From assembly GCF_009914755.1 (NCBI RefSeq), contig NC_060947.1: a stretch of 64,000 bases of DNA. One strand, written 5' to 3'. The stretch comes from the human T2T-CHM13v2.0 reference genome, Homo sapiens. Within the stretch, counting starts at the first letter, position 1, and each line of letters begins with the position of its first letter. Positions 23,054 through 63,009 of this stretch are shown here, piece after piece. A program made the translations under genes and the position numbers. The notes under the pieces are model-generated. The model was not told the origin of the DNA and searched no databases. It saw nothing but the letters and a program-made list of their open reading frames with translations.

Positions 23054-26751
<3,698 letters not shown>

Positions 26752-28406
26752 TTACGGAATACAGCACACTGATGGGTCTTGACTCTATCCAATTTGCCAG
26801 TCTGTGTCTTTTAATTGGAGCATTTAGTCCATTTACATTTAAAGTTAATATTGTTATGTGTGAATTTGATCCTGTCATTATGATGTTAGCTGGTGATTTT
26901 GCTGATTAGTTGATGCAGTTTCTTCCTAGTCTTGATGGTCTTTACATTTTGGCATGATTTTGCAGCGGCTGGTACCGGTTGTTCCTTTCCATGTTTAGCG
27001 CTTCCTTCAGGAGCTCTTTTAGGGCAGGCCTGGTGGTGACAAAATCTCTCAGCATTTGCTTGTCTGTAAAGTATTTTATTTCTCCTTCACTTGTGAAGCT
27101 TAGTTTGCCTGGATATGAAATTCTGGGTTGAAAATTCTTTTCTTTAGGAATGTTGAATATTGGCCCCCACTCTCTTCTGGCTTGTAGGGTTTCTGCCGAG
27201 AGATCTGCTGTTAGTCTGGTGGGCTTCCCTTTGAGGGTAACCCGACCTTTCTCTCTGGCTGCCCTTAATATTTTTTCCTTCATTTCAACTTTGGTGAATC
27301 TGACCATTATTTGTCTTGGAGTTGCTCTTCTCGAGGAGTATCTTTGTGGCGTTCTCTGTATTTCCTGAATCTGAACTTTGACCTGCCTTGCTAGATTGGG
27401 GAAGTTCTCCTGGATGATATCCTGCAGAGTGTTTTCCAACTTGGTTCCATTCTCCCCATCACTTTGAGGTACACCAATCAGACGTAGATTTGGTCTTTTC
27501 ACATAGTCCCATATTTCTTGGAGGCTTTGTTCATTTCTTTTTATTCTTTTTTCTCTAAACTTCCCTTCTCGCTTCATTTCATTCATTTCGTCATCCATCG
27601 CTGATACCCTGTCTTCCAGTTGATCGCATCGGCTCCTGAGGCTTCTGCATTCTTCACGTAGTTCTCGAGCCTTGGTTTTCAGCTCCATCAGCTCCTTTAA
27701 GCACTTCTCTGTATTGGTTATTCTAATTATACATTCTTCTAAATTTTTAACAAAGTTTTCAACTTCTTTGCCTTTGGTTTGAATGTCCTCCCGTAGCTCA
27801 GAGTAATTTCATCATCTGAAGCCTTCTTCTCTCAGCTCGTCAAAGTCATTCTCCATCCAGATTTGTTCCGTTGCTGGTGAGGAACTGCGTTCCTTTGGAG
27901 GAGAGGCACTCTGCGTTTTAGAGTTTCCAGTTTTTCTGTTCTGTTTTTTCCCCATCTTTGTGGTTTTATCTACTTTTGGTCTTTGATGATGGTGATGTAC
28001 AGATGGGTTTTTGGTGTGGATGTCCTTTCTGTTTGTTAGTTTTCCTTCTAACAGACAGGACCCTCAGCTGCAGGTCTGTTGGAATACCCTGCCATGTGAG
28101 GTGTCAGTGTGCCCCTGCTGGGGGGTGCCTCCCAGTTAGGCTGCTCGGGGGTCAGGGGTCAGGGACCCACTTGAGGAGACAGTCTGCCCGTTCTCAGATC
28201 TCCAGCTGTGTGCTGGGAGAACCACTGCTCTCTTCAAAGCTGTCAGACAGGGACATTTAAGTCTGCAGAGGTTACTGCTGTCTTTTTGTTTGTGCCCTGC
28301 CCCCAAAGGTGGAGCCTACAGAGGCAGGCAGGCCTCCTTGGGCTGTGGTGGGCTCCACCCAGTTCGAGCTTCTGGGCTGCTTTGTTTACCTAAGCAAGCC
28401 TGCGCA

Positions 28407-50334: not shown

Positions 50335-50813
50335 GATAAGATGGCGGTGCTGAGCAGTGGCGGTGGTGGCAGTGCGGAGCCCGGTGAGGCTCTATTCAAC
50401 GGGGACGTGGAGCCTGAAGCCGGCGCTGGCGCCGCGGCCTCTTCGGCTGTGGATCCTGCCATTCCCGTGGAGGTTATCTTCTAAAAATGTAGAAACCAGA
50501 CTTTTAACTTTTAAACCAACAGAAGAGAACAAATGATTAATAAAAATTAATCCCAAAGAAGTGAAGAAAAGAAAGAACCAGTAGGACAAATACCACAAAG
50601 TATGGAATATCAAACAAATAATCAATTAAGTTGACACAGGAACATATAGAGGCCCTATTATACAAATTTGTTGGGGAGCATATTCCACCATCAATATATC
50701 TGGAGGCCTATGAGGAATACACCAGCAAGCTAGATACACTCCAACAAAGAGAACAACAGTTATTGGAATGTCTGGGGAACGGAACTGATTTTTCTGTTTC
50801 TAGCTCTGCATCA

Positions 50814-51548
50814 ATGGACACCGTTAAATCTTCTTCCTCTTTTAGCCTTTCAGTTTTTCTCTTTCAGTTTTTCAAAAAACCTTTATCTCTTTCAGTTTTC
50901 CGAAATCCCATAGATGTGACATGGAGCAACCCCAAGTCACCACAAAAACCTATTGTTAGAGTCTTCCTGCCCAACAAGCAGAGGACAGTGGTACCTGCAA
51001 GGTGTGGAGTTACAGTCGGAGACAGTCTAAAGAAAGCACTGATGATGAGAGGTCTAATCCCAGAGTGCGGTGCTGTTTACAGAATTCAGGATGGAGAGAA
51101 GAAAACAATTGACCAGGACACTGGTGTTTCCTGGCTTACTGGAGAAGAATTGCATGTGGAAGTGTTGGAGAATGTTCCACTTACAACACACAACTTTGTA
51201 CGAAAAACATTTTTCACCTTAGCATTTTGTGACTTTTGTCAAAAGCTGCTTTTCCAGGGTTTCCGCTGTCAAACATGTGGTTATAAATTTCACCAGTGTT
51301 GTAGTACAGTTGTTCCACTGATGTTTGTTAATTATGACCATCTTGATTTGTTGTTTTTCTCCAAGTTCTTTGAACGCCACTCAATACCCCAGGAAGAGGC
51401 CTCCTTAGCAGAGACTGCCCTTACATCTGGATCATCTCCTTCGGCACCCCCCTCAGATTCTACTGGGCCCCAAATTCTCACCAATCTGTCTCCTTCAAAA
51501 TCCACTCCAATTCCACAGCCCTTCCGACCAGCAGATGAAGATCACTGA
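50814..51548 (+). CDS. Residual 244-aa ATG-initiated ORF of the BRAF retrocopy (RBD + C1/CRD)
   Basis: First in-frame ATG at 50814 within ORF 50631..51548. Ends DEDH-TGA. Translation is not demonstrated. Confidence 0.35.
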
Positions 51549-51707
<159 letters not shown>

Positions 51708-51747
51708 TAACGTGAAAGCCTTACAGAAATCTCCAGGACTTCAGTGA

Positions 51748-52005
<258 letters not shown>

Positions 52006-52175
52006 TGAATATCCTACTCTTCATGGGCTATTCCACAAAGCCACAACTGGCTATTGTCACCCAGTGGTGTTAGGGCTCCAGCTTGTATTACCTTCTCCAT
52101 ATAATTGAGACCAAATCTGAGATGATCAAACTTATAGATATTGCACAACAGACTGCACAGGGCATGGATTACTGA

Positions 52176-52280
<105 letters not shown>

Positions 52281-52283
52281 TGA

Positions 52284-52772
<489 letters not shown>

Positions 52773-53274
52773 TGAAACAAATAAGTGAGAGAGTGCAGGA
52801 GAGTAGAAACAAAAGGAAAATAAATGAACATATGTTTGCTTATATGTTAAATTGAATAAAATATTCTTTTTTTTAAGGTGAACCAAAGAAAACCTGTGTG
52901 GTTAAAGACTAGATATAATTTTTCCCCAAACTAGTATTTCTACTTAACATCACATTTTTAACATCCAAGGATTAAAATACATAGACATTGCTAAAAATTG
53001 GCAGTGCCTCTTCTAGAGGCTTTACTTTCTATTCCGGGTTTGTTTCATTCACTTGGTTATTTTAAGTATTAAACTTCAGTTTTCTCATGCAACTTTTGTT
53101 ACTAGCTATCACATGTCCACTAGGGACTCCAGAAGAAGACCATACCTGTGCCTATGTTTGCAGGTGGGAAGTTGGCAGTAGGTTAACCTGGGTTAGATAA
53201 GGCAAACTGAATAGATCTAATTTAGGAAGTCACTAGAATTTAATAATTCTATTTTTATTCTTAATACTTTTTCT

Positions 53275-53597
53275 TTCTTTCTTTTCTTTTTTTTCTTCTT
53301 TTTTTCTTTTTTGAGACAGAGTCTTGCTCTGTCGCCCTGGCTAGGGTGCAGTGGTGCAATCTCGGCTCACTGCAAGCTCCGCCTCCTGGGTTCATGCCAT
53401 TTTCCCACCTCAGCCTCCAGAGTAGCTGGGACAACAGGCACCCACCACCACGCCCGGCTAATTTTGTTTTTGTATTTTTAGTAGAGATGGGGTTTCACCG
53501 TGGTAGCCAGGATGGTCTCCATCTCCTGACCTTGTGATCTGCTTGCTTAGGCCTCCAAAAGTGCTGGGATTACAGGCATGAGCCACCGCGCCCAGCC
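53275..53597 (-). mobile_element. AluY in the BRAF retrocopy 3'UTR
   Basis: Y-type diagnostics (gcaagctccgcctcc, gccaggatggtctc). Perfect 15-bp TSD cttaatactttttct at 53260-53274 and 53598-53612. Confidence 0.95.
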
Positions 53598-54201
53598 CTT
53601 AATACTTTTTCTATAGTGATTTTACAACAATTTGGAAAATGTGGATAACCTTTATTTCCTTGAAGCAATAAACTAAATTTCTTTTTATAAATTGTGAGTG
53701 CAGGTGACCAAAAATATTGCTGAGGAGTAGCATACTTGACATGAGTAAAATGTCTTAACTTTGGATTTTTAGTGGGAAAATGTTATAAATAGGAATTCCT
53801 TTTAAATAACTTTTTAAAAAATATATTAAGGATGTCTTGCTCATGGAGAAGTCAAATTTCATTGCAAATGCATTGCCCCCTTCACACCCACTTCCTCCAC
53901 TGCAAAAAATCTTCACAGAATTCTGTGAGAACTTTTAGATGTGTTTTTCTTTGAGATAACTCTGGTTTCCAAACACCAGGTAATAGATATTTTAAAGTTC
54001 TCTATTAGATTATTCTTACCTGTTATTATGCATCTTTTAGCAATCACCTTATCATTGTCTCATGAAATTTCGGTCCTCCTTATATTCTTTGCCCAGCAAG
54101 ATTCTACTTATGATGAATGAATGCTATTCTCCTTTTTGCATTCCATAGTATGAAGTATTTGTTAGTGTTCTCTAATACTTATACTTTGTTGTGTAGAAAG
54201 T

Positions 54202-60209
<6,008 letters not shown>

Positions 60210-60335
60210 AGAATACTCATGCACAATACAATACCACAATACAATACCTTTCGGACTTGTAAATGTATGAAAAAGAATGAATAATATTTCTAGAAGGATG
60301 CAGGTCAATATCATGATTATTCTTCTCTTTAAAAT

Positions 60336-60490
60336 AGAGTTTCTCAACCTGAGTGCTATTAACATTTAGGACTAGATAATTCCTTGTTGCAGGCTCTCCT
60401 TGCATTGCTGGATGATTGGCAACATCCCTGCCCTCTACCCACTAGATGACAATAGCACCCCCAAAACTGTCCTGGTTGAGAACCACTGCT
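60336..60490. mobile_element. MER20-like hAT DNA transposon remnant
   Basis: Inverted ends gtttctcaacc ... ggttgagaaccactg with MER20-like core ctctacccactagatg. Confidence 0.7.
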
Positions 60491-60752
60491 CTCTGCAAAA
60501 AGAGAAGATAATGTGTGAAGATGGTTAACATTAGTTTTTAAATCTACATTTGTAATATTTTTGTTCTTAAAAAATATTGTAAGAAAACATATGTCAGTTG
60601 TTCATTTGAGTGATAAAAATATAAGGGTTTGCTGTTTTGTTGAGTCTCATACATTTATAAAATAAAAACTACCATCTATGAGCACTATAATTTTGTGTAT
60701 TAAAAGGGTAATTTTTAAATCAAACCAGCAGGAAGGCTAGACTAAGATGAGG

Positions 60753-61199
60753 TGTTGTGGGCTGAGAAAGACATGTTGAAGTCTTAACACCTGGTACCTG
60801 TGAATGTGACTTTATTTGAATACAGGGTCTTTACAGATGTCATCAAGTCAAGATGAGGTCATACTGTAGTAGGCCGTACTGCAAATCTAATCCCTAGTGT
60901 CCTTAGAGAGATAGAGAGATGTGGACACAGAGACACAGGGAAGACAACCATGTGATGATGGAAGTGGCCACTGGAGTGAGGCCACTACAAGCCAAGGAAC
61001 GCCAAGGATTGCCGGTAACACCAGAAGCCGGGAAGAGGCGAGGAAGGAATCTTCCCTAGAGACTTCAGAGGGACCGTGGCCCTGCCAACACCCTGGTTTC
61101 AGACTTCTGGCCTCCAGAACTATGAGCTAATAAATTTTTGTTGTCTTAAGCCACCCAGTTGCTGGTACTTTGTTAGAGCTGTCCCAGGAAACTATTGCA
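60753..61199 (+). mobile_element. MLT1-type MaLR solo LTR
   Basis: tacctgtgaatgtgactttatttgaa...agatgaggtcatact...cttctggcctccagaactatgag..aataaattt..ttaagccacccagtt. Confidence 0.85.
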
Positions 61200-61444
61200 T
61201 AAAGCTATGCTCCTTTTCCAACTCGCTGCATTGCTGGGAAGGTCTTCATTCTCCTACCAACCAGTGAAAACATTGTCTCAAGCCAACTTGCCTTTGCCAG
61301 CCACAGGGAAGCTCAGGGGCTCTGGCCAGCTAGAGAACAAGGAACCCTGTAGCTTCCCCACTGCTGTGTTGTGTAGTGGTAGAACAAGATGGGAAAACAG
61401 CAGCATTCACAGCAGAGCTGACACTGATTCTGCGAGCTTTGCCA

Positions 61445-61560
61445 AGTGGTACCTCAGTTTACTCATCTGAGCAATGGAACAAAAAGAACAAACCACAGAG
61501 ACATCTGGAGGACAAAATGAGATCATGTATATGAAAAGGACTTACAAATGCAAACTATCA
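61445..61560 (+). mobile_element. MIR remnant
   Basis: cctcagtttactcatctg...gaggacaaaatgagatcatgtatatgaaa. Confidence 0.55.
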
Positions 61561-63009
61561 TTGGCACCAAGCTGTCATTTCACACCTGGACCAAAGAAAA
61601 GACAATTAGCCCCAGAAAAGACAATTAACTTGATACCTTTAGGAAGAAAAAAAAAATCTGTCTTTGAATATAATTACTTTTATACTTGCTTGGGAAATCT
61701 CTATCCAGTCTCAAGAGGGTTAAAAATGAGGAAGGGAGACAGATACACACTGAAAAATGACAGCAAAAATAAAACCAATTAAAGTTTTTATACCATGGTC
61801 CCTAAAAAAAAAGAAAAAAAAAATGACTGTAATGTGATGGTCAGTGTATTCTTACTCTGATTCGGGAAATCAAAAGTAGAAAGCAACAGCAGGTGGGCCT
61901 ATCAAAGATTTGGCCATCTCTCTACTTCATTGTCAGCCTCTTAACTCTATCTTCACTTACTCAATTTGGTTTTGTCATGATTTTTAAATGTAGCCAATGG
62001 TTCAAGATTTTTCCAGTGAACAGACATCTGTATAAATGCTTCCTTGAAGTCAATAAAGAAGAAAATTGTGAAGACTTTAAATTAATGATAATTTAGTTTT
62101 TAAGTACCCACAAATAAATTTTTGAAACATTATCTTTACTTGAAAGTTAGATGTCATCCAGGAAAATCACTCAATAATAATTATGGCAAACCGTTAACCC
62201 CTCATTTGGTTAGCTTAAGATAAGTAATGCCATTATTATTTCAGAATTGTTTCATGACTTTCAGTTTAGTTAAGAAAATAAAAAGGAGCATTTCTCATAT
62301 TTTAAAAAATGAGACTAAGAAAGGAATAAAGAAATGTAACTATTGGAAAATATCAAAGTGTATCATTTTTAAAGCCTTTGGTGGCACTGAAGATATGATT
62401 ATTAGTAATTGTTAGATAGGGTTTTACTCATTCAAAATAGAAGACTAGCAAGCATGTAACTAACAGAGTTTTTAAAAACTTTACTTTGTCTGTGGAATAC
62501 TCTGAAAGTTTGGCCATTTTGAGGCACAAGGTTTATTGATAGAGCTCTTTCTATAATTTCCCAGCATACCTGCCTCACTGTTATCTTCCTTCCATTTTTC
62601 ACTCTCTTTTTCTTCTCAGTGCCATCCTGCCTAGGCTCCCATCATCTGCATCTGATGCCTTTCCTTTCTTTCTTTGCTAGTCTCCTTTGCAGTGGGACAT
62701 GGCTAAGCTCTGTAGAGCTGCCCAAAAACTCATTGTCCCATCCTGTAGCCAGTAAAACATACCTCCAAAGTATCACAGGGTAATTCTACTCTCCCTTCCA
62801 AATTAAGCCCACCAGAAATATTAGTGAAAGGACATTAAAAATGTAACAGGTGACATGTTTAGCTAACATGGATCTGGAGAAATAGGAAGCAGTAGAATTA
62901 AATGTTTCACTTTTAGGTTTAATTGTATTTGTTCTTGGGTTTTGTTTTATGCTGAGTTTTAAATATATTCTCCAAATAAAAACATTATTTTTTCTAACCA
63001 AAAAAAAAG

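What the first reader, a model, noticed from the sequence alone, without database searches (positions are those of the whole stretch)
50473..50599. 127-nt insert exactly at the BRAF exon1/exon2 junction: probable fossil of an L1-derived poison exon
Seen: the exon-1 copy ends ...ATTCCCGTGGAG (50472) and the exon-2 copy starts GTATGGAATATCAAACAA (50600). Between them are 127 nt with no TSD and no poly(A). The insert reads GTT ATC TTC TAA in frame, stopping translation after 47 aa, and its length is not a multiple of 3. Knowledge: BRAF exon 1 ends GAGGAG and exon 2 begins GTGTGG. From recall, the insert (aacttttaaaccaacagaagag...aattaatcccaaagaagtgaagaaaag...ggacaaata.cacaaa) resembles the inter-ORF segment of ancient L1M(E) in sense, a family far older than this retrocopy. 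Inference: the copied mRNA contained a cryptic exon exonised from an old L1 in BRAF intron 1. The pseudogene would then have been dead on arrival and would record an NMD-type BRAF splice form, which may still act as a regulatory poison exon.
Basis: partly seen in the sequence, partly recalled or inferred. Interest (0 to 1): 0.8.

Follow-up and report, generated by a model that had tools for sequence, protein, structure and literature searches.

The report
Fossil L1-derived BRAF exon in BRAFP1
The 127 extra bases in the BRAF pseudogene on chromosome X are a copy of a piece of an old L1 repeat inside BRAF intron 1, so the pseudogene preserves an ancient, translation-stopping extra exon that the human BRAF gene probably no longer uses.

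Summary
Window 50473-50599 (127 nt) lies exactly between the exon-1 and exon-2 copies of BRAFP1 and gives an in-frame TAA after 47 codons.

The insert comes from BRAF intron 1. It matches one place in the genome at full length: 120 of 127 bases, no gaps, in BRAF sense, 18,779 nt below exon 1. All 17 other exon copies abut cleanly.

The parental segment is the spacer just before ORF2 of a decayed sense-strand L1.

Insert divergence (5.5%) equals the non-CpG divergence of the exon copies (5.2%), which fits one age.

The predicted ag|...|gt flanks are not met. Today's human parent reads aa|G...A|ga. An AG lies 1 nt inside, and the nearest GT is 5 nt further on. A young Alu now sits 17 nt upstream.

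Verdict: this is a real fossil of an L1-derived, stop-bearing cassette exon, a new example of two known phenomena. Present-day use as a poison exon is unsupported and looks unlikely in human. Other primates and RNA-seq could not be examined.

The parts
50336..50472 (+). BRAFP1 copy of BRAF exon 1 (5 nt of 5'UTR plus coding part; ATG at 50341)
   Evidence: Matches C7:142238766-142238910 on the minus strand at 85%. CpG decay explains most of the differences: 11 of 16 mismatches are at CpG sites.
50473..50599 (+). 127-nt insert: copy of an L1-derived segment of BRAF intron 1, read as a fossil cassette exon
   Evidence: 120 of 127 bases identical, no gaps, to C7:142219862-142219988 on the minus strand, which is BRAF sense. 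That place lies between exon 1 and exon 2.
50482..50484 (+). In-frame TAA, fourth codon of the insert; translation stops after 47 residues
   Evidence: The same TAA is present in the parental intron segment, so it was already in the source transcript.
50555..50577 (+). Purine-rich run (22 of 23 bases are A or G; GAA-type repeats) inside the insert, a possible splicing-enhancer tract
   Evidence: Read. It is conserved in the parent apart from the two differing bases just upstream. The enhancer role is an inference from recalled knowledge of GAA-rich enhancers and was not tested.
50600..50706 (+). BRAFP1 copy of BRAF exon 2 (starts GTATGG; parent GTGTGG)
   Evidence: Matches C7:142164302-142164404 at 91%.
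50704..53274 (+). BRAFP1 copies of BRAF exons 3-18, abutting without any other non-exonic insert
   Evidence: 17 consecutive exon matches on C7 at 87-99% identity. Their query ranges follow one another with overlaps of 0-8 nt.

Best explanation
The 127 nt are a molecular fossil of a cassette exon. An old L1 lies in sense orientation in the 74-kb first intron of BRAF. Around the origin of catarrhine primates, the last ~127 nt of its spacer before ORF2 were spliced between exon 1 and exon 2 in at least one germ-line BRAF mRNA. That otherwise fully spliced mRNA was reverse-transcribed and inserted on the X chromosome as BRAFP1. The extra exon carries an in-frame TAA at its fourth codon, and its length is not a multiple of 3. 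The transcript was therefore a nonsense (NMD-type) isoform, and the retrocopy could not encode BRAF from the canonical ATG when it arrived.

What is shown: the origin in intron 1, the orientation, the sharp boundaries at the exon junction, the L1 context, the shared stop, and a divergence equal to the rest of the retrocopy.

What is inferred: that spliceosomal inclusion made the junctions, and that the exon was a low-level, noisy or allele-specific product rather than a regulated switch. It is also inferred that the exon is no longer usable in human in that form, because today's parent has aa and ga at the fossil boundaries and a young Alu 17 nt upstream, where the branch point should lie.
For: Origin and placement:
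- the 127 nt have 3 matches in the genome. These are the insert itself, chr7 at 94% over the full length, and a chr8 L1 relative at 80% over 77 nt.
- the chr7 match is on the BRAF sense strand. It lies 18,779 nt below exon 1 and 55,457 nt above exon 2, in an intron of 74,363 nt.
- 7 mismatches, no gap, and homology stops sharply at both ends.
- the other 17 exon copies abut, so the template was a spliced mRNA and this is the only extra piece.
- the TAA is shared by parent and pseudogene.

Age:
- insert divergence is 7/127 = 5.5%. Pooled non-CpG divergence of the exon 1, 2, 3 and last-exon copies is 58/1114 = 5.2%. The insert is therefore not a recent addition.
- PMC6278865 (passages) places BRAFP1 orthologues in all catarrhines tested and nowhere else, with an origin 28-43 Ma.

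L1 context:
- window ORFs used as probes are confirmed as L1 ORF1 and ORF2 endonuclease by Pfam.
-, ORF1 (residues 141-374 used): frameshift-tolerant alignment places ORF1 residues 151-292 at sense 120-525 of the parental locus, score 88. The maximum over 200 shuffles was 61; reversed protein 49; opposite strand 38.
-, ORF2: residues 14-239 align at sense 1642-2299, score 111. Shuffle maxima over 400 shuffles in two runs were 52-70; reversed protein 43; opposite strand 29-31.
- The segment is sense 1501-1627, and an ATG follows at 1629-1631.
- plain BLASTP of the X-read parental frame against L1PA ORF2 gives E 2e-6.
- 14 further related copies exist. One of them (chr3) gives 47% identity over 85 residues to the ORF2 N-terminus, E 2e-21.
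Against: - The dinucleotides at the exact fossil boundaries in today's parent are AA and GA, not AG and GT.
- The nearest AG would start the exon 1 nt later. That leaves an unexplained G at 50473.
- The site 1 nt beyond the end reads AT. The nearest GT is 5 nt beyond.
- By my reading, related L1 copies suggest two things. The A of that AT belongs to the old ORF2 start codon, and CTAAG is old. If so, the present parental states may be ancestral rather than later losses.
- Every reconstruction therefore needs either 2 changes in the parental allele or 2-3 small indels or substitutions at the pseudogene junctions. I could not decide between them.
- Whether the insert is present in other catarrhine BRAFP1 orthologues was not testable.
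- Pfam found no L1 domain in 0 of 6 X-read frames of the parental locus. It also found none in 0 of 12 frames of four related copies.
- tblastn with L1PA ORFs gave nothing below E 0.002, and that single hit fell at an Alu border.
Confidence: 0.85

Rival explanations
1. The exon is still a working, regulated poison exon of human BRAF. It would be included at low level and removed by NMD, using today's AAG acceptor (1 nt inside the fossil start) and the GTAGAT donor 5 nt beyond the fossil end, or non-canonical sites.
For: An AG and a GT exist within 1 and 5 nt of the boundaries. The insert holds a 23-nt purine-rich run. The parental segment differs from the fossil at only 7 sites, where about 13 would be expected if both sides drifted at the exon-copy rate (P(X<=7) = 0.04-0.05); this is a weak hint of constraint. 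LINE-derived NMD exons are common, and old LINEs are the commonest source (10.1101/297853, passages).
Against: Those sites do not reproduce the fossil junctions without 3 extra changes in the pseudogene. AAG is the weakest of the usable acceptor triplets, and GTAGAT lacks the +5 G (recalled consensus, not scored here). A young Alu (23 CpG kept, pure 21-nt tail, perfect 14-15 nt target duplication) ends 17 nt upstream and pushes the old branch-point region about 300 nt away. An AG within 1 nt and a GT within 5 nt are not unusual by chance in A-rich sequence. No paper in five searches mentions such an exon.
Confidence: 0.1
2. The insert records a one-off aberrant transcript from a private allele. 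One or two splice-site-creating variants in an ancestral individual activated a pseudoexon, as in human disease alleles. The allele was later lost, so today's parent never had the sites.
For: By my reading, related L1 copies share the ATG context at the 3' boundary (chr12 copy) and CTAAG at the 5' boundary (chr3 copy). This suggests the present non-canonical parental states are ancestral. Pseudoexon activation by single variants is a known class (PMC8819188; only the abstract in the search listing was seen).
Against: It needs two variants on one haplotype for clean junctions, or one variant plus two 1-nt slippage indels in the pseudogene. The by-eye alignment rests on 2-3 copies at 63-80% identity, and MAFFT did not place those motifs in the same columns.
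Confidence: 0.3
3. The junctions were not made by splicing. Either reverse-transcriptase template switching on unspliced BRAF pre-mRNA or a later DNA-level patch (repair or gene conversion from chr7) placed the intron fragment there.
For: There are no canonical dinucleotides at the exact boundaries in the parent. There is 1-2 nt of shared sequence at both joints: GT after exon 1 and at the segment start, and G at the segment end and the exon 2 start.
Against: Both joints coincide to the base with the end of exon 1 and the start of exon 2, out of 74,363 intron positions, and the fragment is in sense orientation. All other junctions are clean exon-exon joints. Divergence equals the rest of the retrocopy.
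Confidence: 0.05

Closest known systems
Processed pseudogenes as fossils of ancestral splice variants (Shemesh et al. [quoted passage not shown]
   Same: A retrocopy keeps the exon make-up of the mRNA it came from, including variants not seen in today's transcript catalogues.
   Different: I saw only the title, in the reference list of PMC7290577; the paper itself is not held, so its content is recalled. I do not know whether BRAFP1 is in their set. Here the preserved exon lacks canonical sites in the present parent, so it may be extinct.
LINE-derived cryptic or NMD exons in long introns (Attig et al., bioRxiv 10.1101/297853, passages read)
   Same: An intronic L1 supplies an exon that brings in a premature stop. 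That paper reports old LINEs as the commonest source of such exons, with most triggering NMD.
   Different: That work rests on RNA-seq of living cells, and its repression model centres on antisense L1. Here the L1 is in sense, the only evidence of inclusion is a retrocopy tens of millions of years old, and present-day inclusion is untested.
Regulated, conserved poison exons (for example in SR-protein genes; recalled)
   Same: A cassette exon with an in-frame stop and a frame-shifting length, lying far upstream of the last exon junction.
   Different: Classic poison exons are highly conserved and have strong splice sites and autoregulation. This one is repeat-derived, its parental boundaries are non-canonical today, and no regulation is known.
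Pathogenic pseudoexon activation (PMC8819188; abstract in search listing only)
   Same: A deep-intronic segment becomes an exon, possibly after a single splice-site-creating change.
   Different: No variant is known here, and the event is ancient and preserved only as a retrocopy.
Recursive-splicing exons of long vertebrate introns (Sibley et al. 2015; reference seen, content recalled)
   Same: A long (74 kb) first intron, a cassette segment that begins with GT, and a stop on inclusion.
   Different: The defining AG|GT at the segment start is AA|GT in today's human sequence. The rebuilt donor GAG|GTTATC would be weak, and the site lies in a repeat rather than in conserved sequence.

Membership tests
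Retrocopy preserving an alternative exon of its parent | Intronless, colinear copy of the parent's exons | tested here: met
   Exon 1 and 17 further exon matches with abutting query ranges.
Retrocopy preserving an alternative exon of its parent | Extra segment maps to the corresponding parental intron, in sense, at near-unique identity | tested here: met
   120 of 127 bases identical, full length, BRAF sense, between exon 1 and exon 2. The next best genome hit is 80% over 77 nt.
Retrocopy preserving an alternative exon of its parent | Segment boundaries coincide with the exon-exon junction | tested here: met
   to the base, with a 1-nt ambiguity from the shared G.
Retrocopy preserving an alternative exon of its parent | Canonical AG and GT flank the segment in the parent | tested here: not met
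   One search shows aa|G...A|ga in the present human parent. An AG lies 1 nt inside, AT lies 1 nt beyond, and GT lies 5 nt beyond. The ancestral states are unknown.
Retrocopy preserving an alternative exon of its parent | Segment as old as the retrocopy (present in orthologous retrocopies) | tested here: inconclusive
   Divergence of 5.5% against 5.2% for the exon copies fits one age. No other primate genome could be searched. The supplement of PMC6278865 is graphics only.
L1-derived exon | Segment lies inside an L1 element, with orientation known | tested here: met
   ORF1 remnant upstream and ORF2 endonuclease remnant starting 15 nt downstream, both in BRAF sense. BLASTP gives E 2e-6 for the BRAF copy and 2e-21 for a related copy. 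Pfam alone found nothing. The subfamily was not determined because no repeat library was available.
L1-derived exon | Inclusion in mature mRNA | tested here: inconclusive
   The only evidence is the retrocopy itself. No RNA-seq was available.
Poison (NMD-switch) exon | Premature stop or frameshift on inclusion, well upstream of the last exon junction | tested here: met
   In-frame TAA at the fourth codon, length 127, 16 junctions downstream. The TAA is shared with the parent.
Poison (NMD-switch) exon | Present-day inclusion that rises when NMD is blocked; regulated use | not testable with these tools
   No transcript data. Five literature searches found no report.
Poison (NMD-switch) exon | Functional splice sites and branch point in the living gene | tested here: not met
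   Non-canonical dinucleotides at the fossil boundaries. A young Alu ends 17 nt upstream.
Recursive-splicing exon | AG|GT at the 5' end of the segment in a long intron | tested here: not met
   The intron is 74,363 nt, but the site reads AA|GT today.

The most novel reading that the evidence does not exclude
BRAFP1 preserves an extinct regulatory exon of an oncogene. On this reading, the L1-derived exon was a genuine NMD-coupled dosage switch of BRAF in early catarrhines. Its parental copy stayed under some constraint (7 differences where about 13 are expected). It was later disabled in the human lineage by changes at both splice sites and by a young Alu landing on its branch-point region, and it may still be used in other catarrhines.
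Probability: 0.1. Interest if true: 0.6.

Novelty: new member of a known kind. Interest (0 to 1): 0.35.

Why it matters
BRAF is a major oncogene, and BRAFP1 is one of the best-known pseudogene 'decoy RNA' cases. The finding has four consequences.

- BRAFP1 was copied from a nonsense isoform. It never carried an intact BRAF reading frame from the canonical ATG.
- The RefSeq gap in the BRAFP1 alignment is explained.
- The finding gives a dated example (28-43 Ma per PMC6278865) of an L1-derived exon in a long first intron that seems to have died since.
- If the exon were still usable in some primates, or could be re-activated, it would be a natural handle for lowering BRAF output. My evidence makes this unlikely for the human sequence.

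The phenomenon as such, a retrocopy that fossilises a splice variant or a LINE-derived NMD exon, is already known.

Tried and rejected
- **Pfam on parental frames.** Pfam on six X-read frames of the parental locus found 0 of 6 with an L1 domain.
- **Pfam on related copies.** Pfam on 12 frames of four related L1 copies found 0 of 12. The fragments per frame are too short for the profiles.
- **tblastn with window L1PA ORFs.** tblastn against the parental locus gave nothing convincing. The best ORF1 hit had E 0.34, though at the right place. The E 0.002 hit lay at an Alu border. I therefore wrote a frameshift-tolerant aligner with shuffle controls and checked it with plain BLASTP.
- **Fetching the whole BRAF locus.** Per-exon identities came from a search without loci instead. 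CpG-aware divergence therefore covers only exons 1, 2 and 3 and the last exon, that is 4 of 18.
- **Ancestral states from related copies.** I used related L1 copies to infer the ancestral states at the two boundaries. The copies are 63-80% identical, MAFFT's columns are unreliable at the boundaries, and my by-eye reading is only suggestive.
- **Reconstructing the exact splice sites.** I considered four models.
  - Clean junctions with two parental changes.
  - AG acceptor plus an AAG|GT donor, with +G and -G slippage in the pseudogene.
  - A 128-nt exon with one G lost.
  - Present-day AG and the GT 5 nt further on, with three pseudogene changes.
  - None is clearly best.
- **Supplement of PMC6278865.** It was searched for a primate alignment but holds only drawing code.
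- **Papers not held.** Zou 2009, Karreth 2015 and Shemesh 2006 are not held. They may describe the insert, and I could not check.
- **Recursive-splicing reading.** I considered it and set it aside, because the AG of the AG|GT motif is absent today.

Full report
**1. The observation**

One search shows the BRAFP1 exon-1 copy ending ...ATTCCCGTGGAG at 50472. It is followed by 127 nt (50473-50599), and the exon-2 copy starts GTATGGAATATC at 50600.

No direct repeat flanks the 127 nt, and no A-run ends it.

Translation from the ATG at 50341 stops after 47 residues, at a TAA that is the fourth codon of the insert.

BRAF exon 1 ends ...CCGGAGGAG|gtgagt, and exon 2 begins ttttttag|GTGTGG.

This is only because the G on either side of the insert can be assigned either way.

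**2. Where the insert comes from**

A search of the window's own genome with the 127 nt gave 3 matches:
- the insert itself;
- chr7 (C7:142219862-142219988, minus strand) at 94% over the full 127 nt, E 1e-48;
- a chr8 place at 80% over 77 nt.

A search with the first 565 nt of the pseudogene placed exon 1 at C7:142238766-142238910. It placed exon 2 at 142164302-142164404 and exon 3 at 142148886-142149066, all on the minus strand.

The insert therefore maps inside BRAF intron 1, in the sense of the gene. It lies 18,779 nt below exon 1 and 55,457 nt above exon 2, in an intron of 74,363 nt.

The pairwise alignment has 7 mismatches and no gap. Homology ends abruptly at both ends.

The remaining exons are all present as 17 abutting matches at 87-99% identity. 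The template was therefore a fully spliced mRNA, and this is its only extra piece.

**3. Age**

At non-CpG sites the exon copies I could align differ from the parent at 58 of 1114 sites, or 5.2%. These are exons 1, 2 and 3 and the last exon, that is 4 of 18; the rest could not be fetched. The insert differs at 7 of 127 sites, or 5.5%.

So the insert is not a recent addition.

It is, if anything, a little less diverged than expected if the parental intron drifted as fast as the pseudogene (expected about 13 differences; P(X<=7) = 0.04-0.05). I regard that as a weak, unexplained hint.

PMC6278865 (passages) reports BRAFP1 orthologues in all catarrhines examined and in no other species, with an origin 28-43 Ma. 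Its main text has no occurrence of 'insertion', 'intron' or 'exon'.

**4. The L1 claim**

Read in BRAF sense, the parental locus shows these features in order:
- A-rich sequence;
- an older sense Alu;
- a young antisense Alu;
- the segment;
- an ATG two bases after the segment.

Three standard approaches found no L1 signal:
- Pfam found no L1 domain in 0 of 6 X-read frames.
- Pfam also found none in 0 of 12 frames from four related copies.
- tblastn with L1PA ORFs from the window was not convincing.

I then took two window ORFs that Pfam confirms as L1 ORF1 (Transposase_22 and partner domains) and L1 ORF2 endonuclease. I aligned them to the locus with a frameshift-tolerant dynamic programme.

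| Probe | Residues aligned | Sense coordinates | Score | Shuffle maxima | Reversed protein | Opposite strand |
|---|---|---|---|---|---|---|
| ORF1 (residues 141-374 used) | 151-292 | 120-525 | 88 | 54 and 61 (100 + 100 shuffles) | 49 | 38 |
| ORF2 | 14-239 | 1642-2299 | 111 | 52-70 (400 shuffles, two runs) | 43 | 29-31 |

Plain BLASTP agrees. The X-read parental frame against L1PA ORF2 gives E 2e-6.

A longer query found 14 further related places at 68-85% identity. One of them (chr3) aligns to the BRAF element over 331 nt. Its ORF2 N-terminus is 47% identical over 85 residues to L1PA ORF2, E 2e-21.

The segment (sense 1501-1627) is thus the last stretch of the spacer before ORF2 of an old, sense-oriented L1. 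I could not name the subfamily.

**5. The splice sites**

Here the prediction fails in its literal form. Today's parent reads ...tatgttttaatttctaa|GTTATC...GCACAAA|gatgggtagattt.

- The dinucleotides at the exact fossil boundaries are AA and GA.
- An AG ends one base inside (aag|TTATC).
- The position one base beyond the end reads AT.
- A GT lies five bases beyond (atgg|gtagat).

Rows, read by eye, suggest two things. The A of that AT belongs to the old ORF2 start codon: the chr12 copy has the same AAGATGG context, and the chr3 copy has GTG there. CTAAG is also old (chr3 copy). The present states may therefore be ancestral. MAFFT did not align these motifs column by column, so this is only suggestive.

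Every reconstruction costs something:
- Clean junctions need two changes in the transcribed parental allele.
- Using the present AG needs an extra G in the pseudogene at 50473.
- A donor one base beyond the segment end needs A to have been G, plus loss of one G in the pseudogene.
- The GT five bases on needs a 5-nt deletion plus a substitution.

The pseudogene does carry many small indels: 6, 4 and 21 gap columns in the exon 1, 2 and 3 copies. Junction slippage is therefore not far-fetched. I cannot choose a model, and outgroup primates would decide.

**6. Why I still read it as an exon**

Both joints coincide to the base with the end of exon 1 and the start of exon 2, and the fragment is in sense orientation. 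All other joints in the retrocopy are exon-exon joints.

A repair patch or reverse-transcriptase jumps would have to hit two specific positions out of 74,363. I give those alternatives about 5%.

**7. Is it a poison exon?**

In the structural sense, yes. The TAA lies in the first 38 nt, which are identical in parent and fossil. The length is 127, and 16 exon junctions follow. The isoform was therefore a nonsense isoform, and BRAFP1 was non-coding for BRAF on arrival.

For a regulatory role I have no evidence. For present-day use in human I have evidence against:
- The boundaries are non-canonical.
- An Alu ends 17 nt upstream of the segment. It has a 281-nt body, 23 CpGs still intact, a pure 21-nt tail and a perfect 14-15-nt target duplication. 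It is AluY-like by eye, a label no tool gave.
- Before that insertion, candidate branch points (ttgac, ttgat) lay about 25-32 nt upstream. They are now about 300 nt away (read; inference).

The purine-rich run at 50555-50577 could have helped exon definition (inference).

**8. Comparison with what is known**

- Retrocopies that preserve splice variants are a known class (Shemesh et al. 2006; only the title was seen; the paper is not held).
- LINE-derived exons that trigger NMD, mostly from old LINEs, are described at scale (10.1101/297853, passages).
- Five searches found no mention of this insert or of an exon in BRAF intron 1. In the one candidate I opened, 'BRAF' matched only an author's surname.
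- The two primary BRAFP1 papers could not be read. A review passage says only that BRAFP1 is interrupted by many stops.

**9. Verdict**

The origin in intron 1, the L1 context and the dead-on-arrival inference are supported. The AG/GT prediction is not met in today's human sequence, and the living-poison-exon idea is unsupported.

This is a tidy new example of known phenomena in a well-known gene pair. Interest 0.35.

Noticed in passing
window 53275-54202 and 61820-62736: The BRAFP1 retrocopy runs well past its RefSeq end at 53599. Window 53598-54202 (89.5%) and 61820-62736 (88.5%) still match the parental BRAF last exon and long 3'UTR. The match reaches the edge of the parental locus I held, so the true 3' end, poly(A) tail and target duplication were not seen.
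   Followed up: partly
window 53275-53597: An Alu is inserted in the BRAFP1 3'UTR copy. It drew dozens of 85-90% hits genome-wide. The annotated BRAFP1 end coincides with the end of this Alu.
   Followed up: partly
window 54203-61819: A block of about 7.6 kb interrupts the BRAFP1 3'UTR copy. It opens with an L1PA-type 5'UTR and holds L1 ORF1 and ORF2 pieces on the + strand. The last ~1.6 kb (60231-61819) was not identified.
   Followed up: no
L002 (C7:142218362-142221488), sense 1182-1483: A young antisense Alu lies in BRAF intron 1. It has 23 CpGs, a pure 21-nt tail and a perfect 14-15-nt target duplication, and it ends 17 nt upstream of the fossil exon's parental copy. It probably arrived long after the retrocopy was made. 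An older sense Alu lies about 420 nt further upstream.
   Followed up: partly
window 50473-50599 versus C7:142219862-142219988: The parental intron segment differs from the fossil at only 7 of 127 sites. That is no more than the exon copies differ from constrained exons (5.5% against 5.2%). About 13 differences would be expected if the intron drifted freely (P = 0.04-0.05). This may be chance, low mutability of A-rich sequence, or mild constraint.
   Followed up: partly
window 50704-50992: The exon-3 copy is the most damaged of those examined: 87% identity with 21 gap columns, including a short local duplication around 50850-50900.
   Followed up: no
window 23054-27808 (minus strand): An L1PA copy has a 960-residue open stretch of ORF2 and a 288-residue ORF1 stretch. 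It was observed only.
   Followed up: no
C3:12608030-12608090 and C4:10230902-10231396: Two weak matches to the BRAFP1 kinase-region copies lie outside BRAF (80% over 61 nt and 64% over about 500 nt). They are presumably RAF paralogue sequences and were not examined.
   Followed up: no
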